This document shows, in pieces, positions 3,161-30,439 of a stretch of DNA of 64,000 nucleotides. This stretch comes from Pristiophorus japonicus (lineage: Eukaryota). The stretch is from the NCBI RefSeq assembly GCF_044704955.1, contig NC_091995.1, positions 26,660,001 through 26,724,000 on the forward strand, given 5' to 3'. A program made the position numbers and the translations under genes. How positions within the stretch are numbered: position 1 is the first letter of the stretch; each line of letters begins with the position of its first letter. The notes under the pieces were generated by a model. It was given only the letters and a program-made list of their open reading frames with translations, made no database searches and was not told the origin of the DNA.

Positions 3161-3161
3161 C

Positions 3162-5095: not shown

Positions 5096-5789
5096 CTTCC
5101 GAATTGTCGAATAACCCTGAATATTCAGTTCCCAGTGTCAAATATCCTGAATATTCAGTTCCCACTATTTTCAGAGAAGAGTAGCCGCCTCCTTCCCTCC
5201 ACAGATTCCAGGAGAGTTTCCAGTTTGGCGCCGGTGAAACAGCTCGCCCTCCTGAAACATCCCCTTGCAGCCATTTCTTCTCAAGCACGTCAGGCCGAAG
5301 TCAAGACACAGCTGCAAAACCTGCCTTTAAAAAGCCCAGTGAGCAGCTGCATCTTCAGCATCAACACACTCTGTCTGTATTATTGCATACTACTTTGATA
5401 TGATGTTATTATTTGTAGCTCAATAGTAAAACTGAGGGCAATTTGGGAGCCAAGAAAATGAGAGTTGGGTGGGGAATCGGAGTTTATGCAGAGCAGGCTC
5501 AGGGGGTGGGACTAAGCCACCATCTCTTGGAAAGAGGGTCTAAGTGCAATGTGACACGTTCACTTTGGAGTTTCCATTACAAGCGTGGACATAAAAGTTT
5601 ATAAAGGAAATTTGACTTAAAGATGGGAGAACGATTGTAACAATAAGACAAACGTTTCATTGACAGGTAAATGAACCTTTGGCAATGAAGGAATTAAAAC
5701 TGATGCAATCCTATCGGATTTAATTTGCTCAGCATTAAATGAGAGTTCATTTGTTCTTTGTTATTTGAAGTCTATTTGTGGGCAGGTAC

Positions 5790-6202
5790 CTGTAAAACAT
5801 ACACACGAGGACATCTGACACATTCATAAAGAATAATAATTAAAGACTTGTGCGAGATCAGTTAATTCATTGATACTTCCCAGCTACAGTTATAGGTTGC
5901 GGGAAATCACAGTAACGGGAGGGCGGGTGGTGAGGGGGAATCTACCTGTTCACAGGAGCCCGGCTGAATGAGACTGAAGATCTCAGGGAATGAGTTGAGC
6001 TTCATTCACTTTAGATCAGTGAGCGATTGAACCCCAGCCCCGATTAAAGACAGTCAGTAAAACAGTCACACAGAGTCAGGGGGAACTCGGAACCAGAATT
6101 ACATTGATACTGGAAGTGAGAAAAAACTTGTCGGAGAGGGAAGTAAAATAACTGATGAAAGTGAAAATGTTGGTGAATTGAAAGATTTATTTCCCTGCAC
6201 AT
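5790..6202 (-). pseudogene. IgSF array copy 1: leader exon remnant only
   Basis: Leader 6202-6132 (MCREINL...) is 71 nt, so frameshifted, and its GT donor is lost. At ~5790 intron sequence joins directly to downstream unit sequence, so the V and TM exons are deleted. Confidence 0.65.
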
Positions 6203-6674
6203 AGTGAGCTCCGGGTCGCCCCGATATCACAATAACAGCGGAAGTGACCAGAACCAAGTGGTGAAATCATTTCGAAATTGAAACATTATCAGATCGTTAG
6301 CATAGAAATGTACAAATCTCACATTTAAAATGATGAATTCAGCCTTTAGTCAATATAGTTTCTTCAAAAACAACTCAAGTGGGTGTGTTTGAGGTATCAG
6401 TAAAATAAGTGGCAGAGTGTGCAGACTGACAGAGGCCTGGGTCCGGGTCCAGTTCCATCTCTCTCTATCTCCAGCCCCAGCTCCATGTGTCCCGGAGAGA
6501 TCCCACCGCCCCAGCCACAATAATCCTGTGCTTCCTGAGCAGGGCCCGGGCCTACTGACCCATTAACCATTTCACCGCTTTCAATAAGCGGCCTCATCTC
6601 GTCCATATAATAAAATCCACAGGACTTTTTAAATTTTAAGAGTTTATTTACGATCCCATGCCCCAAGCTTGGTT

Positions 6675-7290
6675 ATTTTTTTATTATTATTTCAAAATAT
6701 ACTTTATTCATATAAAAAATTGCACAATACATTGGAAGACAGTTCCGTGCATTTGGATGCGGTCAGCAATTCCATACAATACATTTGGATGCTGACGGCA
6801 GTTCCGTTCAATACATTTGCTTGCTTTACATTTCGAGTTACAATTCAGTACAATCCGGGATACATTGTAATACAGTCATTAAATTGCGTTACTATACAGT
6901 ACATTGAATGGGTGAGGGTACAGTTACATTTCTTTGAAACATACATTACTAAACAGAACTTGCATTATAAATGGCACTACATAGGTGTTTTCAGATCATG
7001 GTGCTCTATGTATACAAAAAGTTTACAAGTACAGCCCGAGGGGAGTTTTATACTGATTCCAGCCCCTGGTTTTACCGTGGCAGAAGGGTTTAAAACTGTG
7101 GCTCTTCCCCACCGAGCCTTTGCGGCGACTGCACCAATTTTTAGTGTGTCCCTCAGCACGTACTCCTGGATCTTGGATTGTGCCAGTCTGCAACACGCAG
7201 ACGTGCACATCTCCTTGCTCTGGAAGACCAGCAAGTTTTGGCAGGACCAAAGTGCGTCTTTCACCGAGTTGATAGCCCTCCAGCAGCAGC
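6675..7290 (-). mobile_element. 3' fragment of an L1/Tx1-clade LINE
   Basis: WRAINSVKDALWS..NLLVFQ..CCRLAQSKIQEYVLRD..AAKARWG resembles a Tx1-type ORF2 C-terminus. It is followed by a 3' UTR, AATAAA and an A-rich tail at ~6675-6710 on the minus strand. Confidence 0.75.
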
Positions 7291-8570
7291 AGGAGATGGG
7301 GAGAAGGACAGACTGGTTCACTTCTTTCTGACAGAAGCTCACAGTAACACGGCTTCCAGAGGCTGCAACACATTCAAAACAATAAATCAGCTTCAGAAAG
7401 GGAAAACAAAGCACCTTAGTATTCCTTAGAGAGAGTTTATCTCAGGAGCCTGGTTATAAAGCATCCCATGAGTTAGAAATCACAAAATACCTGCAAGCAC
7501 CAACAAAGAATGCATTTGATAGAATGAACATAACGACCAGTGAGAGAGCATGAAATTATAGAATCATAGATTCATACAGCACAGAGGGAGGTCATTTGGC
7601 CAATTTTCCCTGTACCGGTTCTTTGAAAGCGCGATGCATTAGTAGCACGCCCCCGATCTTTCCCCATGGTCCTTCAAACTTTTCCTCTTCAGCTACATAT
7701 TCCATTCCCCTTGGAAGCTGGCCGTTGAATCTGCTGCCAGCACCCTTTCAGGCAACCCGTTCCACATCACAAGAACAACATTTGAGACTTTAATAATTAA
7801 ATCACCACTATTAAATAAAAACAAAGAACCCAGGAGAAACAATTTTACCCAGTGTGGTGAGAATTGCCAGCACAGGGAATGGTTGAGACCAATTGTATAG
7901 AAGCATTTAAATGGAAACTAGATAAACACATCAGGGAGAAAGGAATAGAAGGATATGTTGTTAGGGTTAGATTAAGTAAATATATTGTGGGGAGGCTCCT
8001 GGGGAGCATAAATACCCAACTTCGAACAGTTTGTCCAAATGGCCTATTCTGCGCTATAAATCCTATGTCAGTCTTTGGTATAACTATTAAATAAAGTCTT
8101 GGCAGGAAACTATTGATCCAATCTGCCAATTTTACACATTTGATAAAACATACGCACGGGAACATCTGACACATCAATAAATAAATAATAATTAAAGATT
8201 TGTGGGAGATCAGTAAATTCATTAATAAATCCCAGCTACAGTTACAGGTTGAGGTAACTCCCAGTGTGGAACAGTAACTGGAGGGCAGGTGGTGAGGGGG
8301 GATCTCCCTGTTCACAGGAGCCCGACTGAATGAGACTGAAGATCTCAGGGAATGAGTTGAGCTTCATTCACTTTAGATCAGTGAGCGATTGAACCCCAGC
8401 CCCGATTAAAGACAGTCAGCAAAACAGTCACACAGAGTCAAGGGGAAACTCAGATATAGAATTACATTGATACTAGACGTGAAAGAAAAAACATTGCCGG
8501 AGAGGGAAATAATCTAACTGATGAAAGGAAACATGTTGGTGAATTTAAGGAGTATTCTTCCCCTGCAGTT
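7291..8570 (-). pseudogene. IgSF array copy 2: degenerate leader plus truncated V-exon stub
   Basis: The leader homologue ends at 8498 with a GC donor and has no ATG. The V exon starts at 7362 (ttgcag|(A)SGSRVTVSFCQKEVNQSVLLPIS) and is cut at 7291 by the Tx1-like fragment. Confidence 0.75.
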
Positions 8571-11500
8571 AGCTCCAGCTCCGCCCCGATATCACAATAA
8601 CGCGGCACCGATTTGAACTGAATGAAATGGAGGGAAGTTTCTAATGGTATCCGAGGTTTCACTTTGCAGCAGAAGTGATCAGAACCAAGTGGCGATATAA
8701 TTTCATAGCAACAAAGAAACATAGAAAATAGGTGCAGGTGTAGGCCTTTCGGCCCGTCGAGCCTACATCACCATTCAATAAGCTCATGGCTGATCATTCC
8801 CTCAGTTCCCCTTTCCTGCTTTCTCTCCATACCCTTTGATCCCCTTAGCCGTAAGGGCCACATCTAACTCCCTTTTGAATATATCCAGTGAACTGGCATC
8901 AACAACTCTCTGCAGCAGGGAATTCCACAGGTTAACAACTCTATGAGTGAAGAAGTTTCTCCTCATCTCAGTCCTAAATGGCCTAATCCTAAGACTGTGT
9001 CCCCTGGATCTGCACTTCCCCAGCATCGGGAACATTCTACCCGCATTTAACCTGTCCTATCCCGTCAGAATCTGATATGTTTCTCTGAGATCCCCTCTCA
9101 TCCTTCTAAACTACAATGTATAAAGACCCAGTTGAACCAGTCCCTCCTGATATGTCAGTCCTGCCATCCCTGGAATCAGTCTGGTGAACCTTCGCTGCAC
9201 TCCCTCAATAGCAATAACGTCCTTCCTCAGATTAGGAGACCAAAACTGAACACAATATTGCAGGTGAGGCCTGTACAACTGCAGTAAGACCTCCCTGCAC
9301 CTCCCCTTTTCCAAATCTGCCGCAATTCAGATAATATTCTGTCTTCGCGTTTTTGCCCCCAAAGTGGATAACCTCTCATTTATCCACATTCTGCTGCATC
9401 TGCCATGCATTGTCCACTCATCTAACCTGTCGAAATCAGTCTGCAGCCTCCCAGCCTCCCCCTCACAGCTCACACCGCCTTCCAGTTTAGTGTCATCTGC
9501 AAACTTGGAGATATTACACTCAATTCCTTCATCTAAATCATTGATGTATATTGTAAATAGCTGGGGTCCCAGCACTGAGACTGCGGCACTCATACATAAG
9601 AAGATAAGATTTAGGAACAGGAGTAGGCCATCTAGCCCCTCGAGCCTGCTCCGCCATTCAACAAGATCATGGCTGATCTGGCCGTGGACTCAGCTCCACT
9701 TACCCACCCACTGCCCATAACCCTTAATTCCCTTATTGGTTAAAAATCTATCGATCTGTGACTTGAATACATTCAATGAGCTAGCCTCAACTGCTTCCTT
9801 GGGCAGAGAATTCCACAGATTCACAACCCTCTGGGAGAAGAAATTCCTTCTCAACTCGGTTTTAAATTGGCTCCCCCGTATTTTGAGACTGTGCCCCCTA
9901 GTTCTAGTCTCCCCGACCAAAGGAAACAACCTCTCTGCCTCTATCTTGCCAATCCCTTTCATTATTTTAAATGTTTCTATAAGATCACCCCTCATCCTTC
10001 TGAACTCCAACGAGTAAAGACCCAGTCTACTCAATCTATCATCATAAGGTAACCCCCTCATCTCCAGAATCAGCTGAGTGAATCGTCTCTGTACCCCCTC
10101 CAAAGCTAGTATATCCTTCCTTAAGTAAGGTGACCAAAACTGCACGCAGTACTCCAGGTGCAGCCTCACCAATACCCTATACAGTTGCAGCAGGACCTCC
10201 CTGCTTTTGTACTCCATCCCTCTCGCAATGAAGGCCAACATTCCATTCGCCTTCCTGATTACCTACTGCACCTGCAAACTAACTTTTTGGGATTTATACA
10301 CAAGGACCCCCAGGTCCCTCTGCACCGCAGCATGTTGTAATTTCTCCCCATTCAAATAATATTCCCTTTTACTGTTTTTTTTCCCAAGGTGGATGACCTC
10401 ACATTTTCCGACATTGTATTCCATCTGCCAAACCTTAGCCCATTCGCTTAACCTATCTAAACCTCTTTGCAGCCTCTCTGTGTCCTCTACACAACCCGCT
10501 TTCCCACAAATTTTTGTGTCATCTGCAAATTTTGTTACACTACAATCTGTCCCCTCTTCCAGGTCATCGATGTATATTGTAAATAGTTGTGGTCGCAGCA
10601 CCGATCCCTGTGGCACACCACTAACCACCGATTTCCAACCCGAAAAGGACCCATTTATCCCAACTCTCTGCTTTCTGTTCGCCAGCCAATTCTCTATCCA
10701 TGCTAATACATTTCCTTTGACTCCGTGTATCTTTATCTTCTGCAGTAACCTTTTGTGTGGCACCTTATTGAATAACTTTTGGAAATCTAAATACACCACA
10801 TCCATCGGTATACCTCTATCCACCATGCTTGTTATATCCCCAAAGATTTCCCCTTCATGAATCCATGTTGCGTCTGCTTGATTGCACTATTCCTATCTCA
10901 ATGTCCCATTATTTCTTCCTTAATGATAGCTTCAAGCGTTTTCCCCACTATAGATGTTAAACTAACCAGCCTATAGTTACCTGCCTTTTGTCTGCCCCCT
11001 TTTTTAAACAGAGGCATTACATTAGTTGCTTTCCAATCCACTGGTACCTCCCCAGAGTCCAGAGAATTTTGGTAGATTATAACGTATGCATCTGTTAAAC
11101 TTCTGCCATCTCTTTTAATACCCTGGGATGCATTTCATCTGTACCAGGGGAATTGTCTACCTTGAGTCCCATTAGCCTGTCCAGCACTACCCCCCTAGTG
11201 ATAGTGATTATCTCAAGGTCCTCCCTTCCCACATTTCCGTGACCAGCAATTTTTGGCATGGTTTTTGTGTCTTCCACTGTGAAGACCGAAGCAAAATAAT
11301 TGTTTAAGGTCTCAGCCATTTCCACATTTCCCATTATTAAATCCCCCTCCTCATCTTCTAAGGGACCAACATTTACTTTAGTCACTCTTTTCTGTTTTAT
11401 ATATCGGTAAAAGCTTTTACTATCTATTTTTATGTTTTGTGCAAGTTTACTTTTGTAATATATCTTTCCTTTCTTTATTGCTTTCTTAGTCATTCTTTGC

Positions 11501-12909
11501 TGTCGTTTAAAATTTTCCCAATCTTCTAGTTTCCCACTAACCTTGGCCACCTGATACGCATTGGTTTTTAATTTGATACTCTCCTTTATTTCCTTGGTTA
11601 TCCCTTCTCTTACTGCCCTTCTTTTTCACTGGAATATATTTTTGTTGAGCACTATGAAAGAGCTCCTTAAAAGTCCTCCACTGTTCCTCAATTGTGCCAC
11701 CATTTAGTCTGTGTTTCCAGTCTACTTTAGCCAACTCTGCCCTCATCCCACTGTTTAAGCATAGTATGCTCATTTGAGACACTACTTCCTCACCCTCAAT
11801 CTGTATTACAATTCAACCATATTGTGATCACTCATTCCGAGAGGATCTTTTACTAGGAGATCGTTTATTATTCCTGTCTCATTACACAAGACCAGATCTA
11901 AGATAACTTGCTCCCTTGTAGGTTCTGTAACGTACTGTTCTAAGAAACAATCCCGTATGCATTCTATAAATTCCTCCTCAAGGCTACCTCGTGCGATTTG
12001 ATTTGACCAATCGATATGTAGGTTAAAATCCCCCATGATTACTGCCGTTCCTTTTTCACATGCCTCCATTATTCCCTTGATTATTGCCCGCCCCACCATG
12101 AAGTTATTATTTGGGGGCCTATAAACTACGCCCACCAGTGACTTTTTCCCCTTATTATCTCTAATATCCACCCACAATGATTCAACATTTTGTTCATTAG
12201 AGCCAATATCGTCTCTCACAACTGCCCTGATATCATCCTTTATTAACAGAGCTACCCCACCTCCTTTCCCTTCTTGTCTATCTTTCCAAATTGTCAGATA
12301 CCCCTGTATGTTTAATTCCCAGTCTTGGCCACCCTGCAACCACTTTTCTGTAATGGCCACTAAATCATATCCATTTGTAATGATTTGTGCCATCAACTCA
12401 TTTACTTTATTTCAAATGCTGCGTGCATTTAGGTAGAGTGTTTTAATACTAGTTTTTCAATCATGATTTTTAGTTTTGACCCATCCTGCAGCCCCTTTAT
12501 ATTCATACATATTTTCCCTTTCTATCACCTTGTGGTTTACACTTACCCTTTTGCATTCTTTCTTGGGGTACTGTTCATATGAGCTCTCACCCACTCTAAC
12601 TAGCTCAGAGCCCTCTCCTGGGTTCTGAATACTCCTTGCATTGAGGCACCGAGCTTTCATGCTTGCCTATTTATTACACTTTGACCCTTTAGAATTTTGC
12701 TGTACAGTGGCCCTTTTTGTTTTTTGCCTTGGGTTTCTCTGCCCTCCAATTTTACTCATCTCCTTTCTGTCTTTTGCTTTTGTCTTCATTTTGTTTCCCT
12801 CTGTCTCCCTGCATTGTTTCCCATCCCCCTGCCATGTTAGTTTAACTCCCCCCGCAACAGCACTAGCAAACACTCCCCCTAGGACATTGGTTCCGGTCCT
12901 GTCCAGTTT

Positions 12910-13770
12910 TCACTGGTCCCATCTTCCCCAGAACCTGTTCCAATGCCCCAGGAATTTGAATCCCTCCCTGCTGCACCACTGCTCAAGCCACGTATTCATC
13001 TGAGCTATCCTGCGATTCCTATTCTGACTAGCTCGTGGCACTGGTAGCAATCCCGAGATTACTACTTTTGAGGTCCAATGTTTTAATTTAGCTCCTAGCT
13101 CCTTAAATTCGTCTCGTAGTACCTCATCCCTTTTTTTACCTATATTGTTGGTACCAATGTGCAGCACGACAACTGGCTGTTCACCCTCCCTTTTCAGAAT
13201 GTCCTGCAGCCGCTCCGAGACATCCTTGATCCTTGCAACAGGGAGGCAACATACCATCCTGGAGTCTCGGTTGCAGCCGCAGAAACGCCTATCTATTCCC
13301 TGTACCATTGAATCCCCGATCACTATTGCTCTCCCACTCTTTTTCCTGCCCTCCTCTGCAGCAGAGCCAGCCACGGTGCCATGAACTTGGCTGCTGCTGC
13401 CCTCCCCTGATAAGTCATCCCCCTCAACAGTACTCAAAGCGGTGTACCTGTTTTGCAGGGGGATGATCGCAGGGGACCCCTGCACTACCTTCCTTGCACT
13501 GCTCTTCCTGCTGGTCTTCCACTCCCTATCTGGCTGTGGACCCTTCACCTGCGGTAAGACCAACTCACTACACGTACTACCCACATCATTCTCAGCATCA
13601 TGGATGCTCCAGAGTAAATCCACCCTCAGCTCCAATTCCGCAACGCAGACCGTCAGGATCTGGAGGTGGATACACTTCCCGCACACGTAGTCGTCAGGGA
13701 CACCGGAAGTGTCCCTGAGTTCTCACATGGTACAGGAGGAGCATATCACATGACCGAGCTCTCCTGCCAT
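12910..13770 (-). pseudogene. CR1 ORF1p with Cys-rich N-terminus and SGNH/GDSL esterase-like domain
   Basis: CGKC motif, then IVIGDSMV and VVVLHIGTNNIG, which match the SGNH blocks known from CR1 ORF1 proteins. Confidence 0.82.
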
Positions 13771-13951
13771 GATTTAACCCTTAGATACACTTAAATTGGC
13801 TACAGCAATGCTAAAGTTTACTCACTGTTATAGAAGAGAAAAAAGAAAAACTACTCACCAATCACCAGCTAATCACTTACCCCCTTGGCTGTGACATCAC
13901 CTTTCTGTTTCTTTCTACTTCTTTTTTGCCTTCTCCCTGTAGCTGCACAAG

Positions 13952-14255
13952 CCACGCCTCTTCACGCACCTCCTAACGCCTCTCATGGCATTTATAGGCC
14001 TCTCGCCAACCCCAGACTCACGCCTCTCCACGCACCTCCCGACGCCTCTCGCGGCCTTTATAGGGCTCTCGCTGACCCCGGACTCACGCCTCAGCGACGC
14101 ACCTCCCGACTGCTGAACTCGCGGCCTTTATAGGCCTCTCGCCGACCCCGGACTCACGCCTCTCCATGCACCTCCCGACGCCTCTCGCGGCCTTTATAGG
14201 CCTCTCGCTGACCCCGGACTCACGCCTCAGCGACGCACCTCACGACTGCTGATCT
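13952..14255 (-). repeat. About four GC-rich tandem monomers (~66-70 bp) at the CR1 5' end
   Basis: Recurrent CACGCCTC..CACCTCCCGAC..GCGGCCTTTATAGGCCTCTCGC.GACCCCGGACT. Confidence 0.85.
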
Positions 14256-16149
14256 CGCAACCTCCACTAGTCACTGCCTGCCATTTTGAAAAGGACCCAT
14301 TTATCCTGAATCTCTGCTTCCTGTCTGCCAACCAGTTCTCTATCCACATCAGTATATTACCTCTAATACTATGTGCTTTGATTTTGCACACCAATCTCTT
14401 GTGTGGGACCTTGTCAAAAGCCTTTTGAAAGTTCAAATACATCACATCCACTGGTTCTCCCTTGTCCACTCTACTCGTTACATCCTCAAAAAATTCAAGA
14501 AGCTTTGTCAAGCATGATTTTCCCTTCATAAATCCATACTGACTTGGATCGATCCTGTCACTGCTTTCCAAATATGCTGCTATTTCATCCTTAATAATCG
14601 ATTCCAACATTTTCCCCACTACTGATGTCTGGCCTACCAGTCTATAATTACCTGTTTTCTCTCTCCCTCCCTTTTTAAAAAGTGGTGTTACATTAGCTAC
14701 CCTCCAGTCCATAGGAACTGATCCAGAGTTGATAGACTGTTGGAAAATGATCACCAATGCATCCACTATTTCTAGGACCACTTTCTTAAGTACTCTGGGA
14801 TGCAGACTATCAGGCCCCAGGGATGTATCGGCCTTCAATCCCATTAATTTCCCAAACACAATTTCCCACCTAATAAGGATATCCTTCAGTTCCTCCTTCT
14901 CACTAGACCCTCGGTCCCCTAGTACTTCCAGAAGGTTATTTGTGACTTCCTTCGTGAAGACAGAACCAAAGTATTTGTTCAATTGGTCTGCCATTTCTTT
15001 GTTCCCCATTATAAATTCACCTGAATCTGACTGCAAGGGACCTATGTTTGTCTTCACTAATCTTTTTCTCTTCACATATCTATAGAAGCTTTTGCAAAAA
15101 CATTTCAAAATTGAAAAAAAATCATCAGATCGTTAACATAGAAATGTAAAAATCTCACATTTAAAACGATAAATTTATCCTTCAGTAAATATAGTTTCTT
15201 CAAAAACAAGTGAAGTGGGTGTCTTTGAGGTATCAGTAAAATAACTGGCAGAGTGTGCAGACCGACAGAGGCCTGGACCCGGGTCCACCTCCTTCTCTCG
15301 CTATCTCCAGCCTCAGCTCCATGTGCCCGGGAGAGATCCCATGCCCCAGGTACAATGATCCTGTATTTCTTGAGCAGGACACAGGGTGCCTGCTGTCCCA
15401 TTAACCATTTCACCGCTTTCAATAAGCGGCCTCATCTCATTCATATAATAAAATCCACAGAATATTTTTCCATTATAATAGTTTATTTACGATCCCATAC
15501 GCCAAGCTCGGGTATTGGGAGAGACCAAAAATACAGAATATATGCTGAGGGTGGGGACTACAAGATACAGATGCGATTTTTCATCAGCCCTTCTGACTTG
15601 AATTTATAAACAGATTTTATTTTTAAATGAGGTTTCAAATCCTTTCTATAGGAAAACTGTTGTCCCTTTAACCATGAGCAATAATGGCTATTTTTATAAT
15701 ATTTCCGTAGATCAAATCCACATTCTGTACATTTACCCCTCAATTAATATCACAAACACAATGTAGTCATTTATCTCCTTGTTATATCTGGAACATTGCT
15801 GAGCACACATTGGCTGCTGCATTTCCTGACATTAAATGGTGACTACACTGTAAATTATTTCATTGTCTGTGAGAGACTTTGTGCCGTCCTGAGGTTGTGA
15901 AAGGTGTAAATCCGAGTTGTTTCTTCCCACATTGATCCACACCGAGAAATTATTTATGTCCCTCTCACTTTGCCCGCTGTTTCTGTCACAATGATCCTTT
16001 GGCTGTGAAGGGACTGAATCTGAATTCAATGCTCTCGGGTTTACTTTGCTCAGCAAACTGAGCATTAAATGAGAGATCATGTGTTCTTTCTGTACTTGAA
16101 GTCCACATGTCGGCAGGTACCAGTAACCGCTATAATAGACAGGTCAGTG

Positions 16150-18209
16150 CTATTTTAATACAAGTTGTTGAAACATTGTGAGGAAGTTATTGCGGTTCCA
16201 GCAGGACTGCCAATGGATTGAATTCTCCAGCCGTTGCCCACCCCTGAACAGCGCGATCCCGGGTGTGGGTGGAGTTCTCCCGCTGTCAGTCGCTCTGCAT
16301 CTCCGGCTCACACACAAGTACAGGCAGGCCCCGAGCACAGTGACAGCGCCAAAGATGAGCACATGGAGCAGGAGAGCGGGTGGGTGGTCGGGGAGTTGTT
16401 CGGTGGTCTCCGCTTGCTCTATGCAGCTCCGGGTCGGATGCTCAGTGTCTGCAACAGGAATATGATCATTTACAGCAACCTGACTAGGTTCAAAAGGCAG
16501 ACTTTAATCATTCTTTATCAATTTGCTGGCAATATTCAGCTTGTTTCCGAGCGACAAGTGCAGTACAGTTAAATACTGTTCCTCTATCAGCAAAGGACAC
16601 TGAGGATTAAATGGGTTCAATAATCAGACTGTGAATTCCTACCTGTCCCGGGATAGACTGTTAACGTCACATTGCCTTCACTGGCGATGTTCCTACCACT
16701 GTAAACCGATATCACATACACACCGCTGTCACTGGGCTGCAGATCCCACAGTAACAGGGATCCATTCTCCGTGTAGATGTGGACTCTCTCACTGTGGGAA
16801 GGAGCGACCCGCTGGTAATCTGAACAGGTATACCCGGGTCTGTCAGGGTCGGCAGAGCAGTTCGATCTGGCCAGTGTCACGAATGGACTGTCTCCGGGGA
16901 ACAAAAACCACTTTATCTTTAGAGTGGAGTCGGGAGTGAGTGTGGAATAGGACACGGGGAGAAGGACAGCTCACTTCTCTCTGACCGACTCTCACAGTAA
17001 CACGGCTTCCAGAGGCTGCAACACATTCACAACAAAGAATCAGCTTCAGAAAGAGAAATAAAACAGCTTAGAATTCCTTATGAAGAGTTTAACTCAGGAG
17101 CCTGGTTATAAAGCATCCCATTAGTTCGAAATTTCAAAATCCGTGCAGCACCAACATAGAATACATTTGATCGAATGAACATAACGACCAGTCAGAGAGC
17201 ATGAAATTATAAAATCATTGATCCATACCGCACAGAGGGACGCCATTCGGCCCATCCTGTCTGTGCCAGCTCTTTGAAAGTTCTATCCAATTAGTCCCAC
17301 TGCCCCGCTCTCTCCCCGGAGCTCTGCAAATGTTTCCTTTTCAAGTATATATTCAATTCCCCTTCCTGTTGTATCTGCTTCCACCGCCTTTTCAGGGAAT
17401 GCATTGCAGGTCATAATAACAGAATGCGAGACTTTAACAATTAAATAGTCACTATTAAATACAAACAAAGAGCTCAGGATAAATACATTTATCCAGACCG
17501 TGGTGAGAATGGGGAACTCGTTACCACAAGGAGTGGTTGAGTTGTATAGCATAGATGCATTTAAGGAGACGCTGGATAAGCACCGGAGGGAGAAGGTAAT
17601 AGAAGGATATGTTGATGGGTTAGATGATGGAAATAGATTGTGGGGTAGGTGGTAAGGAGCGTATACACCGGCTTATAACAGTTTGTCCAAACGGCCTATT
17701 CTATGCTATAAATTCTATGTAATTCTATGTAATAATAATTAAATACAGACTTGGGAGAAAACAATTGATACAATCTGCCAATTTTCCACATTTGATACAC
17801 ACGCGAACATCTGACACGTTAATAAATAATTATAATTAAAGACTTATTGGCGGTCAGTTAATTCATTGATAAATCCCAGCTACCTTTAGAGGTTGAGGTA
17901 ACTCTCAGTGTGGAACAGTAACTGGAGGGCAAGTGGTGAGGGGGAATCTACCTGTTCACAGGAGCCCGACTGAATGAGACTGAAGATCTCAGGGAATGAG
18001 TTGAGCTTCATTCGCTTTAGATCAGTGAGCGATTGACCCCCAGCCCCGATTAAAGACAGTCAGCAAAACAGTCACACAGAGTCAGGGGGAACTTAGAAAT
18101 AGAACAACATTGATACTGGAAGTTAGGAAAAAAACATTGCCGGAGACGGAAATAAAGTAACTGATGAAAATTAAATGGTCAATTGAAGCAGATTTATTTC
18201 TCTGCACAT
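16150..18209 (-). pseudogene. IgSF array copy 3 (leader 18209-18141; V 17015-16643; stalk/TM/tail 16448-16150)
   Basis: The leader has a 4-nt deletion giving an early TAA, and a GC donor. The V exon is 373 nt (17-nt deletion vs the 390-nt consensus) and keeps ENGSLLLWDLQPSDSGVYVISV...GNVTLTVY. TM is ALLLHVLIFGAVTVLGACLYLCV followed by SRR. Confidence 0.85.
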
Positions 18210-19175: not shown

Positions 19176-20715
19176 TTAATAAATAAACCACTCAAGTGGG
19201 TGTGTTTGAGGTATCTGAAAAATAAGTGGCAGAATGTGCAGACCGACAGAGGCCTGGGCCCGGGTCCATCTCCATCACTCTCTAACTCCAGCCCCAGCTC
19301 CATGTGCAGGGAGAGATCCCACCGCCCCAGGTACGATGATCCTGTGCTTCCTGAGCAGGGCCCGGGGTGCCTGCTGTCCCATTAATCATTTCATCGCTTT
19401 CAATATGCGGCCTCATCTCGTCCATATAATAACATCGAAAATACACGTTTTTTTTTCATTTCAATAGTTTATTTACGATCCCATGCCTTGCTTGGTTATT
19501 GGCAGAGACCAAACATGCAGAGGACATGCTGAGGGCGGGGATTACATTAGACAGACGCGGATTTTCATCAGCGTTGATATCCTTCCGACTTGGGTTTGCA
19601 AACAGACTATTGTAAACAAAGGTTTCAAAAACTTTCTATAAGAAAATAATTGCCCCTTTGACCATGACCAATTATTGCTACTTTTTATCATATTTCGTAC
19701 ATCAAAATACATTCTGCACACTACCCCTCAATTAAGATCACAAAAAAATGTAATTTATCTCTTTGCTATAACTGGAATCTTGCTGAGCACACATTCGCGG
19801 CTGCATTTCCTGATATTAAACAGTGACTACACTGTAAATTACTTCATTGTCTGTGACTGACTTTGTGCCGTCCTGAGGTTGTGAAAGGTGTAAATCCGAG
19901 TTGTTTCTTCCCACATTGATCCACACCCAGAGATTATTTCTGTCCCCCTCACTTTGCCAGCTGTTTGCGTCTCAATGATCCTGTGGCAGTGAAGGGACTG
20001 AATCTGAATCCAATGCTCTCGGGTTTAAGGTGCTCAGCACACTGAGCATTAAATGAGAGATCATGTGTTCTTTCTTTACTTGAAGTCCACATGTCGGCAA
20101 GTACCAGTAACCGCTATAATAGACAAGTCAGTGCTCCCAATAACACTGGGTGTGGTCAATGAGCCGTGAGCTGTACAAACTGGAGCAACTGATGGTCGGG
20201 AGTGAGGCCCTGAAAAACCCACCTCACAGAACAGGCCGGGAAATCATACTGGAAGGCTTGTGGGCAAAATACAAAAGTATCGGAAGGGCGACTCACAACC
20301 GCAGTGAGCAGAGGGCAGGGCAGGAATTCACAGCGGAGAGATTCCAATAGGCGCTTTCGCCAGAGTTACGCTGGGGTTAGGACCGCATTAGTTCCAGTTT
20401 ACAATTCAGAACAAGGGTTTTACTTCCCGATTTTAATCGCTCCACCATTAGTGGCCCTGCCTTCAGCCGCCTCGACCCGAAACTCTGGAATTCCCTGCCC
20501 AAACCTCTCGGCCTACCTCTCAGTCCTCCTTTTTGTCTCCTTAGAACATACCTATTTAGCCAAGCTTTTGGTCATTTGCCCTAATTTTCCTTCTCGGCTG
20601 TGTGTCAAATTTTGTTTCATAATACTCCTGTGAAGCCCCTTGGGACGTTTTACTACATAAAAGGCACTGTATAAATACAAGTTGTTGTTCTTGTTGTTGA
20701 AACATTGTGAGGAAG

Positions 20716-23301
20716 TTATTGCGGTTCCAGCAGGACTGCCAATGGATTGAATTCTCCAGCCGTTGCCCACCCCTGAACAGCGGGATCCCCGGGTGTGGGT
20801 GGAGTTCTCCCGCTGTCAATCGCTCTGTATCTCCGGCTCACACACAAGTACATGCAGGCCCCGAGCACAGTGACAGCGCCAAAGATGAGCACACGGAGCA
20901 GGAGAGCGGTGGGTGGTCGGGGAGCTGTCCGGTGGTCTCCGCTTGTTCTGTGCAGCTCCGGGTCGGATGCTCAGTTCCTGCAACAAGAATTTGATCATTT
21001 ACAGCAATCTGACTAGGTTCAAAAGGCAGACTTTAATTATTCTTTATCGATTTGTTGGCAATATTCACCTTGTTTCAAAGCGAGAAGTAGAGTATAGCTA
21101 CATAATGTTACTCTATCAGCAAAGGATACTGAGGATTAAATGGGTTCAATAATCAGACTGAATTCCTACCTGTCCCGGGATAGACTGTTAACGTCACATT
21201 GCCTTCACTGGCGATGTCCCCACCACTGTAAACAGATATAACATACACGCCGCTGTCACTGGGCTGCAGATCCCACAGTAACAAGGATCCATTCTCCGGG
21301 TAGATGTGGACTCTCCCTGTGGGGATGAGCGACCCGCTGGTAATCTGAACAGGTATACTCGGGTCTGTCAGGGTCGTCAGAACAGTTTGATCGAGTCAGC
21401 GTCACTGATGGAGTGTCGCCTGGGAATAAAAACCACTATCTTTACAGTGGAATAGGGAGTGTCAGTGCAGTAGGAGACGGGGAGAAGGACAGACTGGTTC
21501 ACCGTCCCGCTCACTTCTCTCTGACCGACGCTCACAGTAACACGGCTTCCACAGGCTGCAACACATTCGAAAGAAAGGATCAGCTTCAGAAAGAGAAATA
21601 AAACAGCTTAGAATTCCTTATGAAGAGTTTGACTCAGGAGCCTGGTTAAAAGCATCCCATTAGATCGAAATTTCAAAATCCGTGCAACACCAACAAAGAA
21701 TACATTTGATCGAATGAACATAACGACCAGTCAGAGAGCATGAAATTATAGAATCATAGATTCATACCACACAGAGGGAGGCCATTCGGCCCATCCTGCC
21801 TGTGCCGGCTCTTTGAAAGTGCTATCCAAAGTACTGCTTTGAAAGTACTTACTCACCTTTCATAAGGAAGGATATACTAGCTTTGGAGGGGGTACAGAGA
21901 CGATTCACGAGGCTGATTCCGGAGATGAGGGGATTACCCTATGAAGATAGATTGAGTAGACTGGGTCTTTACTCGTTGGAGTTCAGAAGGATGAGGGGTG
22001 ATCTTATAGAAACATTTAAAATAATGATTCCACTGGTCGGGGAGACTAGAACTAGGGGGCACAACCTCAAAATAGGGGGGAGCCAATTTAAAACCGAATT
22101 GAGAAGGAATTTCTTCTCCCAGAGGGTTGTGAATCTGTGGAATTCTCTGCCCAAGGAAGTAGTCGAGGCTAGCTCATTGAATATATTCAAGTCACAGATA
22201 GATAGATTTTTAACCAATAAGGGAATTAAGTGTTACGGGGAGCGGGCGGGTTAGTGGAGCTGAGTCCACGGCCAGTTCAGCCATGATCTTGTTGAATGGT
22301 GGAGCAGGCTCGAGGGGCTAGATGGCCTACTCCTGTTACTAATTCTTATGTTCTTATATTCTTATGTTCAATTAATCCCACTACCCCGCTCTCTCCCCGG
22401 AGCTCTGCAAATGTTTCCTTTTCAAGTATATATTCAATTCCCCCTTGAAGCTTCCTGTTGTATCTGCTTCCACCGCCCTTTCACCGAATGCATTGCAGGT
22501 CATAACAACAGAATGCGAGACTTTAATAATTAAATAGTCACTATTAAATACAAACAAAGAGCTCAGGATAAATAAATTTACCCAGAGGGTGGTGAGAATG
22601 GGGAACTCGTTACCACAAGGAGTGGTTGAGGTGAATAGCATAGGTGCATTTAAGGAGAAGCTGGATAAGCACCAGAGGGAGAAGGTAATAGAAGGATATG
22701 TTGATGGGTTAGATGATGGAAATAGATTGTGGCGTAGGTGGTAAGGAGCTTATACACTGGATAATAACTGTTTGTCCAAACGGCCTATTCTATGCTATAA
22801 ATTCTATATAATTCTATGTAATAATAATTAAATACAGACTTGGGAGAAAACAATTGCTACAATCTGCCAATTTTACACATTTGATACACACGCGAACATC
22901 TGACACGTTAATAAATAATTATAATTAAAGACTTATTGGAGGTCAGTTAATTCATTGATAAATCCCAGCTACCTTTAGAGGTTGAGGTAACTCTCAGTGT
23001 GGAACAGTAATTGGAGGACAAGTGGTGAGGGGGAATCTACCTGTTCACAGGAGCCCGACTGAATGAGACTGAAGATCTCAGGGAATGAGTTGAGCTTCAT
23101 TGACTTTAGATCAGTGAGTGTTTGCCCCGCAGCCCCGATTAAACATAGTCAGCAAAACAGTCACACAGAGTCAGGGGGAACTTAGAAATAGAACGACATT
23201 GATATTAGAAGTTAGGAAAAAAACTTACCGGAGACGGAAATAAAGTAACTGATGAAAATGAAATGGTTGGTCAATTGAAGCAGATTTATTTCTCTGCACA
23301 T
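20716..23301 (-). pseudogene. IgSF array copy 4 (leader 23301-23229; V 21555-21170; stalk/TM/tail 20977-20716), the least damaged copy
   Basis: Intact 73-nt leader MCREINLLQLTNHFIFISYFISVS-G|GTAAG. All splice sites are canonical and phase 1. The V exon is 386 nt (two 2-nt deletions) and the TM exon has a 1-nt deletion. No in-frame stop remains after correction (241 aa). Confidence 0.8.
21855..22368 (+). mobile_element. CR1 3' fragment in intron 1 of copy 4
   Basis: RT C-terminal ORF at 21883-22254 and tail ...CTAATTCTTATGTTCTTAT. Confidence 0.9.
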
Positions 23302-24310: not shown

Positions 24311-25763
24311 AATAAATAAACCGCTTAAGTGGGTGTGTTTGAGGTATCTGAAACATAACAGGCAGTGTGGGCACGGGTCCATCTCCATCTCTCTCTATCT
24401 CCAGCCCCAGCTCCAAGTGCCCGGAGAGATCCCACCACCCCAGGTACAATGATTCTGTGCTTCCTGAGCAGGGCCCGGGGTGCCTGCTGTCCCATTGACC
24501 ATTTCACCGCTTTCAATAAGCGGCCTCATCTCGTTCATATAACATCGAAAATACACGTTTTTTTCTCATTTCAATAGTTTAGTTACGATCCCATGCCCAA
24601 GCTTGGTTATTGGGAGAGACCAAACATATAGAGGACATGCTGAGGGCGGGGATTACATTCGACAGATGCGGATTTTCATCAGAGTTGATGTCCTTCCGAC
24701 TTGGGTTTGCAAACAAGGGTTTCAAATACTTTCTATAAGAAAATAATTGTCCCTTTGACCATGAGCAATAATTGCTATTTTTTATCATATTTCCGTACAT
24801 CAAAATACATTCTGCACACTACCCCTCAATTAAGATCACAAAAAATGTAATTTATCTCTTTGCTATATCTGGAACATTGCTGAGCACACATTGACTGCTG
24901 TATTTCCTGACATTAAACGGTGACTACACTGTAAATTACTTCATTGTCTGTGAGAGACTTTGTGTCGTCCTGAGGTTGTGAAAGGTGTAAATCTGAGTTG
25001 TTTCTTCCCACATTGATCCACACCCAGAAATTATTTCTGTCCCCCTCACTTTGCCCGCTGTTTATGTCTCAATGATCCTGTGAAGGGATTGATCCTCTCG
25101 GGTTTACTTTGCTCAGCACACTGAGCATTAAATGAGAGATCATTTGTTCTTTCTTTACTTGAAGTCCACATGTCGGCAGGTACCAGTAACCGCTATAATA
25201 GACAGGTCAGTGCTCCCAATAACACTGGTTGTGATCAGTGAGCCGGGAGCTGCACAAACTGGAGCAACTGATGGTTGGGAGTAAGGCCTGAAAAACCCGC
25301 TTCACAGAAAAGGCCTGGAAATCACAGTGAAAGGCTTGTGGGCAAAAGACAAAAGGGTCAGAAGGGCGACTCACAACTGCAGTGGGCAGAGGGCGGGGCA
25401 GGAATTCACAGCGGGGGGATTCCCAGAGGTGCTTTCGCCAGAGTTAGGCTGGGGTCAGGACCGCATTAGTTCCAGTTTACAATTCAGAACAAGGGTTTTA
25501 CTCCCCGATTATAATCGCTCCACCATTAGTGGCCCTGCCTTCAGCCGCCTCGACCCGAAACTCTAGAATTCCCTGCTCAAACCTCTCCGCCTCTCTACCT
25601 CTCCCCCTACTTTGCGACTCTCCAAGGAACCTCACTCTTTGACCAAGCTTTTGGCCATCTGCCCTAATTTCTCCTCATGTGTCTCGGCATCAAATGTTGC
25701 TTTATACAGCTCCTGTGATGTTATATGAATGCAACTTGTTGTTGTTGAAACATTGTGAGGAAG

Positions 25764-26597
25764 TTATTGCAGTTCCAGCAGGACTTCAAATGGATTGAAT
25801 TCTCCAGCCGTTGTCCACCCCTGAACAGCGCGATCCCCGGGTGTGGGTTGAGTTCTCCCGCTGTCAGTCGCTCTGTATCTTTGGCTCGCACACAATTATA
25901 GGCAGGCCCCGAGCACAGTGACAGCGCCAAAGATGAGCACACGGAGCAGGAGAGCGGGTGGGTGGTCGGTGAGCTGTCCGGGGGTCTCCGCTTGCTCTGT
26001 GCAGCTCCGGGTCGGATGCTCAGTGTCTGAAACAAAAATTTGATCATTTACAGCAACCCGACTAGGTTCAAAAGGCAGACTTTAATCATTCTTTATCAAT
26101 TTGCTGGCAATATTCAGCTTGTTTCCAAGCGACAAGTACAGTGTCGTCAAATAATGTTCCTCTATCAGCAAAAGGCACTGAGGATTAGATGGGTTCAATA
26201 ATCAGACTGTGAATTCCTACCTGTCCCGGGATAGACTGTGAACGTCACATTCCGTTCACTGGCTGTGTTCCCACCACTGTGAACACGCTGCTGTCACTGG
26301 GCTGCAGATCCCACAGAAACAAGGATCCATTCTCCGGGTTTATGTGGACTCTCTCCCTGTGGGAAGGAGCGACCCGCTGGTAATCTGAACAGGTATACCC
26401 GGGTCTGTCAGGGTCGGCAGAGCAGTTTGTTCGGAACAATATCACAAATGCACTGTCTCCGGGGAATAAAAACCAGGTTATCTTTACAGTGGTGTAGGGA
26501 GTGAGTGTGGAGTAGGAGACGGGGAGAAGCACAAACTGGTTCACCGTCCCGCTCACTTCTCTCTGACCGACGCTCACAGTAATCCGGCTTCCAGAGG
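25764..26597 (-). pseudogene. IgSF array copy 5 (V 26597-26221; stalk/TM/tail 26026-25764; leader deleted)
   Basis: The V exon is 377 nt (13-nt deletion in the DSGVYV strand). There is a TAC>TAA nonsense change inside the TM at 25896-25898. Only the leader's donor site survives, at 27718. Confidence 0.85.
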
Positions 26598-27718: not shown

Positions 27719-30144
27719 CGCTGTCAGTCGCTCTGTATCTCCGGCTCACACACAAGTACAGGCAGGCCCCGAGCACAGTGACAGCGCCAAAGATGAGCAC
27801 ACGGAGCAGGAGAGCGGCTGGGTAGTCTTGGAGTTGTCCGCTGGTCTCCACTTGCTCTGTGCAGCTCCGGGTCGGATGCTCAGTGCCTGGAACAAGAATG
27901 TGATCATTTACAGCAATCCGACTATCAATTTGCTGGCAATATTCAGCTTGTTTCCAAGCGACAAGTGCAGTACAGTTAAATAATGTTCCTCTATCAGCAA
28001 AGGACACTGAGAATTTAATGGGTTCAATAATCAGACTGTGAATTCCTACCTGTCCTGGGATAGACTGTTAACGTCACATTGCGTTTACTGGCTGTGTTCC
28101 CACCACTGTAAGCAGATATCACGATGCTGTCACTGGGCTGCAGATCCTACAGTAACACGGATCCATTCTCCGGGTCGATGTGGACACCCTCCCTGTGGGA
28201 AGGAGCGACCCGCTGGTAATCTGAACAGGTATACCCGGGTCTGTCAGGGTCGGCAGAGCAGTTTGCTTGGGTCAGTGTCACTAATGGAGTGTCTCCGTGG
28301 AACAAAAAACACTTTATCTTTACAGTGGAGTAGGGAGTGAGTGTGGAGTCGGAGACGGGGAGAAGGACAGACTGGTTCACCGTCCCGCTCACTTCTCTCT
28401 GACCGACGCTCACAGTAACACGGCTTCCAGAGGCTGCAACACATTCAAAACAAAAAATCAGCTTCAGAATGGGAAATAAAACAGCTTAGAATTCCTTATG
28501 AAGATTTTAAATCAGGAGTCTGATTATAAAATATCCCATGCGTTCGAAATCACAAAATACCTGCAGCACCAACAAAGAATACATTGGATCGAATGAACAT
28601 AACGACCACTCAAGAGCATGAAATTATAGAATCATAGATCCATACAGCACAGAGGGAGCCCATTCGGCCCATCGTGTCTGTTTGAACGTGCTATCCAATT
28701 AATCCCACTCCCCCCCCGCTCTCTCCCCGGAGTCCTGCAAATGTTTCCTTTTCAACTATATATTCAATTCCCTTTTGAATTTTATTGTTGAATCTGCTTC
28801 CACCGCCCATTCAGGCAGTGCGTTCAGATCATAACAACAGCATTTGAGAGGTTAATCATTAAATAGTCACTATTAAATCGATAAAAGGAATTCAGGAGAA
28901 ACATTTTTATCCAGAGGGATGTGAGAATGTGGGACTCGCCAGCACAGGGAATGGCTGAGGCGAATAGTATAGAGACATTTAAGGCGAAGCTCGATAAACA
29001 CATGAGGGAGAAAGCTATAGAGGGATATTTTGTTCGGGTTAGTTGAAGTAAATAGGTTGTGGGGTGGCTCTTGAGGAGCATAAACCGGCTAGACCAGTTT
29101 GTCCAAATTACCTATTCTGTGCTGTATATTCTATTTAGAAACATAGAAACATAGAAAATAGGTGCAGGAGCAGGCCATTCAGCCCTTCTAGCCTGCACCG
29201 CCATTCAATGAGTTCATGGCTGAACATGAAACTTCAGTACCCCCTTCCTGCTTTCTCGCCATAACCCTTGATCCCCCGAGTAGTAAGGACTTCATCTAAC
29301 TCCCTTTTGAATATATTTAGTGAATTGGCCTCAACTACTTTCTGTGGTAGAGAATTCCACAGGTTCACCACTCTCTGGGTGAAGAAGTTTCTCCTCATCT
29401 CGGTCCTAAATGGCTTACCCCTTATCCTCAGACTGTGACCCCTGGTTCTGGACTTCCCCAACATTGGGAACATTCTTTCTGCATCTAACCTGTCTAAACC
29501 CGTCAGAATTTTAAACGTTTCTATGAGGTCCCCTCTCATTCTTCTGAACTCCAGTGAATACAAGCCCAGTTGATCCAATCTTTCTTGATAGGTCAGTCCC
29601 GCCATCCCGGGAATCAGTCTGGTGAACCTTCGCTGCACTCCCTCAATAGCAATTCTATGTTATAATCATTACATAAAGACGTGGTAGAGAACAATTGATC
29701 CAATCTGCCAATGTTACACATTTGCTAAAAGATACACACGGGAACATCTGACACATTAGTATAAAACAATAATTAAAGGCTTGTCAGAGATCAGTTAATT
29801 GATTAATAAATCCCAGCTACAGTTATAGATTGCGGGAATTCCCAGTGTGGAACAGTAACTGGAGGGCAGGTGGTGAGGGGGAATCTACCTGTTCACAGGA
29901 GCCCGACTGAATGAGACTGAAGATCTCAGGGAATGAGTTGAGCTTCATTCACTTTAGATCAGTGAGCGATTGAACCCCAGCCCCGATTAAAGACAGTCAG
30001 CAAAAAAGTCACAGAGTCAAGGGGAAACTCAGATACAAAATTACATTGATATTAGAAGTGAGAAAAAAACTTACCGGAGAGGGAAATAAAATAACTGACG
30101 AAAAGAAAAATGTTGGTGAATTTAAAGTTTATTTTCCGGCACAT
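27719..30144 (-). pseudogene. IgSF array copy 6 (leader 30144-30075; V 28433-28050; stalk/TM 27886-27719)
   Basis: Intact 70-nt leader MCRKINFKFTNIFLFVSYFISLS-G|GTAAG. The V exon is 384 nt and in frame but has TGG>TAG at 28147-28149 and a 6-nt loss in the F strand. The TM exon is 168 nt and its tail is deleted. Confidence 0.85.
29137..29651 (-). mobile_element. CR1 3' fragment in intron 1 of copy 6
   Basis: RT C-terminal ORF at 29234-29638; repeated TAGAAACA tail. Confidence 0.9.
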
Positions 30145-30290
30145 AGTGAGATCCGGGTACCCGCCGCCCCGATATCACAGTAACGGGACACCCAGCTGTG
30201 CCGAATGAGACGGAGTGACATTATTCCATGCGATTCAGTCTCGCAACCCGTGGTTCTTCGCAGGCGGCAGCGGAAGTGACCAATGGTAAA
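30145..30290 (-). promoter_or_regulatory. Candidate proximal promoter of the IgSF gene
   Basis: CpG-rich stretch just upstream of the leader ATG. It has a GC box (CCGCCCCG ~30182), an ETS-type CGGAAGTG (~30271) and an adjacent CCAAT. GCGGAAGTGACC also lies upstream of the leaders of copies 1 and 4. Motif evidence only. Confidence 0.4.
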
Positions 30291-30439
30291 AGTGAATTTT
30301 CAGCATTGCACCTAATTAATAACATTTTATATACCGGCTCCATAATTTCTATTTCGCAATACATCTGCTTAAAGTCGATTGAGTCAAAATGACAGATTAA
30401 AAAAAATACAATCTGTGTTAAAGATAAAGTTGTGCGGAT

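What the first reader, a model, noticed from the sequence alone, without database searches (positions are those of the whole stretch)
5700..30300. Six-copy tandem family of a single-V-domain Ig receptor gene, each copy broken independently
Seen: a three-exon minus-strand gene with all phase-1 junctions (70/73-nt leader, 390-nt V exon, stalk+TM+short tail; 241 aa reconstructed from copy 4), repeated six times. The lesions differ in every copy: whole-exon deletion, LINE-linked truncation, -17 nt, -2/-2/-1 nt, -13 nt plus TAA, and TAG. Known: V domains with LLP in strand B and DSGxYxI rather than YxC in strand F belong to the CD2/SLAM/CEACAM/HEPACAM/VSTM5 type, and one V + TM + short tail matches VSTM5 architecture. 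Inference: a lineage-specific birth-and-death expansion of a cell-surface family that the ORF track shows only in fragments.
Basis: partly seen in the sequence, partly recalled or inferred. Interest (0 to 1): 0.75.

Follow-up and report, generated by a model that had tools for sequence, protein, structure and literature searches.

The report
Unnamed paired immune receptor, dead copies
These are six broken tandem copies, likely in a shark genome, of a one-Ig-domain surface-protein gene whose intact relatives run from chimaera to birds and platypus and, in sharks, rays and birds, come as same-species pairs with near-identical outer domains but different membrane and tail parts, so they likely form an unnamed activating/inhibitory immune receptor pair, of which these copies would be the activating member.

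Summary
The array is real: six minus-strand units at 5.7-30.3 kb. Four keep V and transmembrane (TM) exons, two are fragments, and none is intact as assembled. The V domain is Pfam V-set, lacks the B-F cysteines and has its own Cys pair. The VSTM5 reading misses the main feature: an arginine at the outer side of the TM helix (ALLLRVLIFG). Intact, uncharacterised relatives occur in chimaera, sharks, rays, gar, lungfish, amphibians, turtles, birds and platypus. They fall into two classes: uncharged TM with a two-tyrosine (ITIM/ITSM-like) tail, or Arg/polar TM with a mostly short tail. V domains group by species (87-99% identity in 8 of 8 pairs), while stalk/TM parts group by class (98/99, 100/99). 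That is the signature of paired receptors with homogenised ligand-binding domains. The window holds the Arg class only, expanded by unequal crossing-over (copy C is a D/B hybrid) and then decayed. Ten literature searches found no description of the family. A possible ITIM-like last exon lies inside a decayed repeat and is not beyond chance. Adaptor, ligand and expression are untested.

The parts
30075..30144 (-). Copy A leader exon (70 nt, open, GT donor); ETS-like CACTTCCG at 30278
28050..28433 (-). Copy A V exon (384 nt): TAG stop, 6-nt in-frame loss in strand F, W-to-C in strand C
27719..27886 (-). Copy A stalk+TM exon with TM arginine, cut and fused in phase 1 to copy B intron-1 donor
26221..26597 (-). 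Copy B V exon, -13 nt; B has no leader of its own
25819..26026 (-). Copy B stalk+TM exon (208 nt to the GT at 25818), TAA inside the TM
24913..25077 (-). Copy B candidate tail exons 25077-25050 (holds a TAA) and 24969-24913 (ITIM-like VIYSVV, inside a decayed repeat); unproven
23229..23301 (-). Copy C leader exon (73 nt, open); CACTTCCG at 23411
21830..22369 (.). Dispersed-repeat (LINE-like) insert in copy C intron 1
21170..21555 (-). Copy C V exon, -2 and -2 nt
20771..20977 (-). Copy C stalk+TM exon, -1 nt before the TM; read-through frame stops at about 20716
19816..19980 (-). Copy C candidate tail exons 19980-19953 (28 nt) and 19872-19816 (57 nt, ITIM-like, repeat-derived); AATAAA at 19473; unproven
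18141..18209 (-). Copy D leader exon, -4 nt, GC donor
16643..17015 (-). Copy D V exon, -17 nt; the rest is the best-preserved V piece (Pfam V-set 3.1e-08)
16242..16448 (-). Copy D stalk+TM exon, R-to-H in TM, -1 nt after the TM
15832..15996 (-). Copy D candidate tail exons 15996-15969 and 15888-15832 (IIYSVV); AATAAA at 15487; unproven
8706..15091 (-). LINE material (GDSL esterase, endonuclease, RT pieces) splitting the 5' flank of copy E
8498..8570 (-). Copy E leader remnant, ATG lost, TAG
7286..7362 (-). Copy E V-exon fragment, cut by an insert; 3' UTR remnant at 6368-6677
5670..6202 (-). Copy F: leader 6202-6132 (-2, dead donor), intron 1 to 5799, joined to an intron-3 remnant 5795-5670

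Best explanation
The window holds six broken tandem copies of the arginine-in-membrane member of an unnamed single-V Ig receptor family, a member that is likely the activating half of a paired activating/inhibitory leukocyte receptor system. Shown: exon anatomy, lesions, V-set domain with its own Cys pair, TM arginine, two TM/tail classes among intact relatives, V domains grouping by species and TM parts by class, and copy C as a D/B mosaic. Inferred mechanism: the inhibitory partner (uncharged TM, LTYSLL-like plus TIYAF-like tail) would bind a self ligand and recruit SHP-type phosphatases. The Arg partner, kept nearly identical in its V domain by gene conversion, would pair through the arginine with an ITAM adaptor (CD3-zeta or FcR-gamma type) and fire when the same surface is engaged, most likely by a microbe exploiting the inhibitory receptor. 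Such activating partners are useful only while the threat lasts, so they would amplify by unequal crossing-over and then decay, which is the state seen here. Step odds: class assignment 0.9, activating via an adaptor 0.7, pathogen-driven 0.5.
For: V-set. Homologues: 17 hits of 146 candidates, 15 of them sharks or rays at 55-77% identity; 140 hits of 7999 candidates, 120 listed, mostly birds; chimaera, gar, lungfish, frogs, newts, turtles and platypus among 20 representatives named. TM and tail census. V identity 87-99% within 8 of 8 same-species pairs against 26-45% after the V; across species within a class, V 64-71% and post-V 38-76%. V tree: 6 of 6 bird pairs are starred sisters; stingray pair 100/99, catshark 99/78, epaulette shark 86/40. 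Stalk/TM trees split by class, 98/99 in sharks and rays (window copy A inside the Arg class) and 100/99 in birds. Window TM exon scores 131/80/65 against three Arg-class exons and 23-44 against eight inhibitory ones. No inhibitory-type TM or tail matched in the window. Copy C: 105 sites shared with D against 18 with B in intron 1, and 19 against 66 in the 3' UTR. TM-exon dN/dS 0.86-1.21 in 5 of 6 pairs. The same pattern is described for KLRC, Ly49 and PIR pairs (PMC3210942, passages). TM arginine binding FcR-gamma is stated for KIR2DL4 (PMC8149889, passages).
Against: No expression, adaptor or ligand data. Class labels were assigned by me from the sequences, and the 51 tree rows were my choice from about 260 fetched proteins. 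Homologue tails are automatic gene models; the catshark Arg-class tail looks mispredicted. In birds the arginine sits at the helix edge and is missing in 1 of 5 partners (P0095), and the emu partner is uncharged. The stingray Arg-class exon scores only 29 against the window's. Two of three shark/ray V pairs fall short of full support. A 2014 survey found no FcR-gamma in shark genomes (PMC4016189, passages), so the adaptor's identity is open. V-exon dN/dS of 0.33-0.63 among B, C and D shows that part of the divergence was under constraint.
Confidence: 0.68

Rival explanations
1. The copies descend from a dual-signal receptor like KIR2DL4: TM arginine plus an ITIM. The TM exon would splice (phase 2) to a 28-nt exon and then (phase 0) to a 57-nt last exon ending in VIYSVV, an exon taken from a decayed SINE-like repeat.
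For: Phases fit 2-2-0 with AG/GT ends in B, C and D. The 28-nt exon's donor is the only GTRAG in 1041 nt of copy D, and one of three in B and in C. A 6-nt loss in B leaves an in-frame acceptor. AATAAA follows about 345 nt after the stop in C and D. The motif resembles the first tyrosine motif of the inhibitory class.
Against: The last exon and its acceptor lie in a dispersed repeat: 69-71% identical to 58906-59083, also like 45560-45629, with summed depth above 6000 in the DNA run. ITIM-like motifs follow 43 of 459 acceptor-like sites in the window (these three included) and arise in 3-4% of simulated decays of that repeat in this frame. The two exons are no better conserved than their introns. 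None of four annotated shark or ray Arg-class models has such a tail. The TM-exon donor (GTGGGC/GTGGAC) is weak.
Confidence: 0.17
2. A VSTM5/HEPACAM-like adhesion molecule (homophilic, neural or epithelial) that was amplified and decayed in a repeat-rich region, with no immune pairing.
For: The Atlas structure search lists HEPACAM and VSTM5 clusters first (TM by query 0.39-0.43). Several homologues carry automatic HEPACAM-like names.
Against: It does not explain the TM arginine, the two-tyrosine tails, or V-only homogenisation repeated in sharks, rays and birds. The automatic names conflict (HEPACAM-, CEACAM3-, CEACAM4-, CD276-like). The Atlas feature search puts an uncharacterised cluster first, then CEACAM19, pIgR-like and TIGIT-like clusters.
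Confidence: 0.08
3. Not all copies are dead: copy C is intact or polymorphic, and its three small deletions are assembly errors or one haplotype's alleles.
For: All three C lesions sit in short homopolymer or dinucleotide runs, and C has no stop codon apart from those frameshifts. DNA run X1 has V and TM pieces matching no window copy: record 7 has 7 differences, none making a stop; record 4 has 6 differences.
Against: Two-base losses at two sites are unusual for a polished assembly (inference). A, B and D carry stops or 13-17 nt losses that are not of that kind. X1 contigs match C exactly at 19500-19660 and 21011-21157. The indel table was cut short, so the C sites could not be read.
Confidence: 0.1

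Closest known systems
Paired Ig receptors with homogenised ligand-binding domains (PIR/LILR, KIR, KLRC, Siglec-11/16, CD300A/C, PILR)
   Same: Near-identical ectodomains within a species, opposite signalling modules, charged-TM activating partner, fast turnover (PMC3210942 passages; the other families from search listings, or recalled).
   Different: No sequence kinship found to these families; this one has a single cysteine-less-core V with its own Cys pair and is kept from chimaera to platypus.
CEACAM family (CEACAM1/CEACAM3; Xenopus ceacam pairs; CEACAM19)
   Same: N-type V without B-F disulfide (recalled for CEACAM). Weak profile hits to CEACAM6/8/7/1 chains (E 2e-07 to 1e-04). ITIM/ITSM-like inhibitory tail.
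   Different: CEACAM activating partners carry ITAM-like motifs in their own tail (PMC5112662). Fowl lack intact CEACAM genes (PMC13278318), yet chicken, duck and quail have this family. Extra Cys pair here.
NKp30/NCR3
   Same: One V plus a TM starting LLLR with a short tail (NKp30 features recalled).
   Different: No B-F cysteines here; an inhibitory twin exists.
VSTM5 / HEPACAM
   Same: Similar V fold in the Atlas; single V + TM architecture as in VSTM5.
   Different: TM arginine or two-tyrosine tail; multi-copy and homogenised; no homologue named VSTM5.
CD2/SLAM family
   Same: V without B-F disulfide; weak hits to CD48 (E 2e-04 to 5e-04); ITSM-like TEYASI/TEYTSI motifs in turtle and chimaera members.
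   Different: No C2 domain; the partner uses a TM arginine.
KIR2DL4
   Same: TM arginine plus one ITIM, only if the candidate last exons are real (PMC8149889).
   Different: Unrelated ectodomain; the ITIM exon here would be repeat-derived and is unproven.

Membership tests
Ig V-set domain | Pfam PF07686 above the curated cut-off; V-type fold | tested here: met
   34.2 bits (D) and 26.4 bits (B) against cut-off 26; a model of homologue P0004 matches V-set structures, Z 13-16.7
Paired activating/inhibitory receptors (as a kind) | Near-identical ectodomains within a species | tested here: met
   87-99% in 8 of 8 pairs; species-wise grouping. Shown in other species; no inhibitory twin lies in the window
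Paired activating/inhibitory receptors (as a kind) | Opposite signalling modules that predate speciation | tested here: met
   Two TM/tail classes, split 98/99 and 100/99 across species; by sequence only
Paired activating/inhibitory receptors (as a kind) | Partners clustered in the genome | tested here: inconclusive
   Equal contig lengths and neighbouring LOC numbers for partners; no genomic DNA of relatives could be fetched
Paired activating/inhibitory receptors (as a kind) | Adaptor binding, phosphatase recruitment, shared ligand, leukocyte expression | not testable with these tools
   needs experiments
VSTM5 | Single V without B-F disulfide plus TM | tested here: met
VSTM5 | Conserved orthologue with uncharged TM (recalled) and VSTM5_C tail domain | tested here: not met
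   TM arginine in A, B and C (His in D); no homologue named VSTM5. The tail domain itself is unsettled: no such hit, and that model may not be in the local Pfam copy
CEACAM | N-type V lacking the core disulfide | tested here: met
   weak CEACAM hits
CEACAM | Activating member signals through an ITAM-like motif in its own tail | tested here: not met
   Arg-class tails show no ITAM; definition from PMC5112662
CEACAM | Locus between LIPE and BCL3 | not testable with these tools
   Only transposon domains were found in the window's other ORFs (9 of 30 ORFs with Pfam hits). Indirectly against: fowl lack intact CEACAMs (PMC13278318) but have this family
CD2/SLAM | V plus C2 ectodomain | tested here: not met
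   V exon is followed directly by the stalk/TM exon; no C2 in single-V homologues
NKp30/NCR3 | TM arginine near the outer face | tested here: met
   ALLLRVLIFG in A, B, C; NKp30 motif recalled
NKp30/NCR3 | Canonical V with B and F strand cysteines (recalled) | tested here: not met
   0 of 55 with Cys at the F position

The most novel reading that the evidence does not exclude
An undescribed paired immune-receptor system as old as jawed vertebrates, with a CEACAM/SLAM-type V domain but NKp30-style arginine signalling, kept from chimaera to platypus and possibly lost in therian mammals. In this shark lineage its activating arm also gained a brand-new ITIM by exonising a SINE-like repeat, turning into a KIR2DL4-like dual receptor before the copies died. 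The family-level part alone I put at about 0.55; the probability given is for both parts.
Probability: 0.13. Interest if true: 0.85.

Novelty: new variant of a known kind. Interest (0 to 1): 0.6.

Why it matters
Paired receptors mark places where pathogens exploit a host inhibitory receptor, and few such families are known to reach back to cartilaginous fish. This one is hidden under 'uncharacterized' and 'HEPACAM-like' labels, yet it has members in chicken, duck and Xenopus, where expression, adaptor and ligand can be tested directly. It would add a candidate checkpoint/activating pair for poultry and comparative immunology, and bear on which ITAM adaptor sharks use. The six copies themselves are ordinary pseudogene debris; their value is as a snapshot of the activating arm turning over and as the pointer to the family.

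Tried and rejected
No genome is held for the window, so paralogues and synteny could not be searched. PDB sequence search with copy A's V gave 2 irrelevant TPR hits. A search with copy A's TM exon against longer proteins found 0 of 85 candidates, so no independent tail for the Arg class was obtained. No RNA holder was listed. Runs X5-X7 covered only the 7 of 30 repeat bins; this says nothing on expression. Rfam gave 0 matches. tblastn of 12 homologues found no inhibitory-type TM or tail in the window. I first read the 28-nt and 57-nt pieces as true ITIM exons (note) and lowered that after finding the repeat origin; the coordinates for those pieces were off by 1-2 nt and were corrected. The top structural match, amphioxus VCBP3 (Z 16.7, rmsd 2.3-2.4, 122-124 aligned, 18% identity), is taken as shared long V loops, not kinship. 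No complex was predicted: no adaptor sequence was in hand. Earlier scan findings: 3 look-ups, nothing. Literature: 10 searches, including seven LOC identifiers, found no description of the family. The library lacks most subscription journals, and no supplements were read; gene tables there could name the family. Absence from therian mammals and teleosts is not established: only 120 of 140 hits were listed, and only 20 unnamed representatives were named.
Full report
Observation. Self-comparison of the window shows a tandem array between about 5.67 and 30.3 kb with units about 85-95% alike. I call the copies A-F from high to low coordinate, all on the minus strand. A, C and D have leader, V and stalk/TM exons; B has V and TM but no leader; E has a leader remnant, 77 nt of V and a 3' remnant; F has a leader and flanks only. 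A's TM exon ends at 27719 directly on B's intron-1 donor, a deletion that removed A's 3' part and B's leader and leaves an in-phase but stop-broken V-TM-V arrangement. About 6.4 kb of LINE material splits E's 5' flank. The other ORFs with Pfam hits are transposon pieces (9 of 30 ORFs scanned), so the window gives no synteny.

How the array formed. The four V domains form one clade (100/94), nearest Heptranchias perlo (86/89), so the expansion is recent and the host is likely a shark; I did not identify it further. Copy C shares 105 informative sites with D and 18 with B across intron 1, but 19 with D and 66 with B in the 3' UTR. It lies between B and D, which is what an unequal crossover would give (inference). 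TM-exon dN/dS is near 1 in 5 of 6 pairs; the sixth has only 0.5 synonymous changes. V-exon values run from 0.33 to 1.21, so decay is recent or V exons were exchanged with constrained paralogues. A DNA run of apparently the same species has contigs identical to C at two places, and V and TM pieces that match no window copy, so further alleles or paralogues exist. Their frames could not be read in full.

The protein. Pfam V-set passes its cut-off for D and B and fails for A. In 55 aligned V domains, none has Cys at the strand-F position, 53 keep the strand-C Trp, and 44 have a second Cys pair at positions 83 and 94 of P0004, including all four window copies. An AlphaFold model of the horn-shark homologue P0004 has a confident V domain and one TM helix and matches V-set structures at 12-25% identity; a disulfide between the two cysteines is inferred, not measured. 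The TM begins ALLLRVLIFG in A, B and C, with His for Arg in D.

The family. Copy D's V finds 17 proteins among 146 candidates, 15 from sharks and rays at 55-77% identity. A profile finds 140 among 7999, of which 120 are listed, mostly birds including chicken LOC771657. The wider profile search gave 2273 hits at E<=0.001; 20 that I looked up come from chimaera, sharks, rays, gar, lungfish, frogs, newts, turtles and platypus. Names are 'uncharacterized' or conflicting automatic labels. Members fall into two classes. One has an uncharged TM and a 70-120 residue tail with two tyrosine motifs (LTYSLL...TIYAF in sharks, TIYARI...VVYTSI in birds, TIYARI...TEYASI in turtle, VTYAEI...TEYTSI in chimaera). 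The other has Arg or polar residues at the outer part of the TM and mostly a short tail without those motifs. Within 8 of 8 same-species pairs the V domains are 87-99% identical and the following 60 residues 26-45%; across species within a class the V is 64-71% and the following part 38-76%. Trees agree: V domains pair by species, stalk/TM parts split by class with 98/99 in sharks and rays and 100/99 in birds, and window copy A sits in the Arg class. The 51 homologue rows and their class labels were my choice.

Mechanism. This split pattern is the 'merohomogenization' described for opposing leukocyte receptor pairs (PMC3210942, passages read). A TM arginine recruits FcR-gamma in KIR2DL4 (PMC8149889, passages); the same for NKp30, NKp46 and LILRA is recalled. 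I therefore infer an inhibitory receptor for a self ligand and an activating twin that senses the same surface, likely when a microbe exploits it. A study of Xenopus CEACAMs suggests that such clusters degrade fast once the pairing is no longer selected (PMC5112662, passages), which fits the dead array here. Against this: no functional or expression data; the bird partner's arginine is marginal and absent in 1 of 5; and a 2014 survey found no FcR-gamma in sharks (PMC4016189, passages), which leaves CD3-zeta as the other candidate (my inference). Overall confidence 0.68.

The possible ITIM exons. In B, C and D a weak donor at the end of the TM exon could splice to a 28-nt exon and a 57-nt exon ending in (V/I)IYSVV, with fitting phases. 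But the last piece and its acceptor sit inside a very abundant dispersed repeat. Such motifs follow 43 of 459 acceptor-like sites in the window and arise in 3-4% of simulated decays, the pieces are not better conserved than introns, and no annotated shark Arg-class model has this tail. I give it 0.17. If real, it would be an ITIM born from a repeat.

Comparison and novelty. It works like a paired receptor and is not a member of VSTM5, CEACAM, CD2/SLAM or NCR3 by the tests listed. Fowl have no intact CEACAM gene (PMC13278318, preprint, passages) but do have this family. A kittiwake gene model named TMLHE contains this family's V-TM-tail (P0120), hinting that the bird locus lies beside TMLHE; that this is the X-homologous part of chicken chromosome 4 is recalled, not tested. 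Ten full-text searches found no description; apart from the five papers named, I saw search listings only, subscription journals are mostly missing, and no supplements were read. The genes are annotated as anonymous models in NCBI, so the sequences are known; their reading as one paired family appears not to be. Verdict: array confirmed and ordinary in itself; family a likely new variant of a known kind; interest 0.6.

Noticed in passing
window 30278, 23411, 18320, 8677, 6246 (minus strand): An ETS-like CACTTC(C/T)G motif lies 44-134 nt upstream of the leader start in 5 of 5 leader-bearing copies, with no TATA box; fits a TATA-less promoter, motif identity recalled.
   Followed up: partly
window 27719/27718: The A/B deletion junction puts a leader-type GT donor in phase 1 behind A's TM, which would allow a V-TM-V-TM read-through were it not for the stops.
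   Followed up: partly
window 47343-51873: Gypsy-like LTR retrotransposon (protease, RT, RNase H, integrase pieces; 216-nt direct repeats at 47343-47557 and 51658-51873, 93.5% alike) inserted into a 32-nt satellite array.
   Followed up: partly
window 39401-40081 and 42875-43555: A 681-nt perfect direct repeat (100% identity): a very recent duplication, terminal repeats of a young element, or an assembly artefact.
   Followed up: no
window 54220-58673 and 62955-64000: Long minisatellites (20-nt unit, 225 copies; 23/45-nt unit) with strong GC skew.
   Followed up: no
window 37907-38338: DDE_Tnp_4 transposase fragment.
   Followed up: no
proteins P0126, P0127, P0128, P0207 and others: Amphibian-type members show tandem V repeats and many Arg-TM forms (FIRTVLCF-like) that have lost the extra Cys pair; a duck-like model P0125 has six V repeats.
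   Followed up: no
proteins P0015, P0026, P0191: Ray inhibitory members have duplicated two-tyrosine tail units, giving four or five motifs.
   Followed up: no
protein P0178 (lungfish): TM arginine together with a C-terminal LVYSEK, a possible independent dual-signal member.
   Followed up: no
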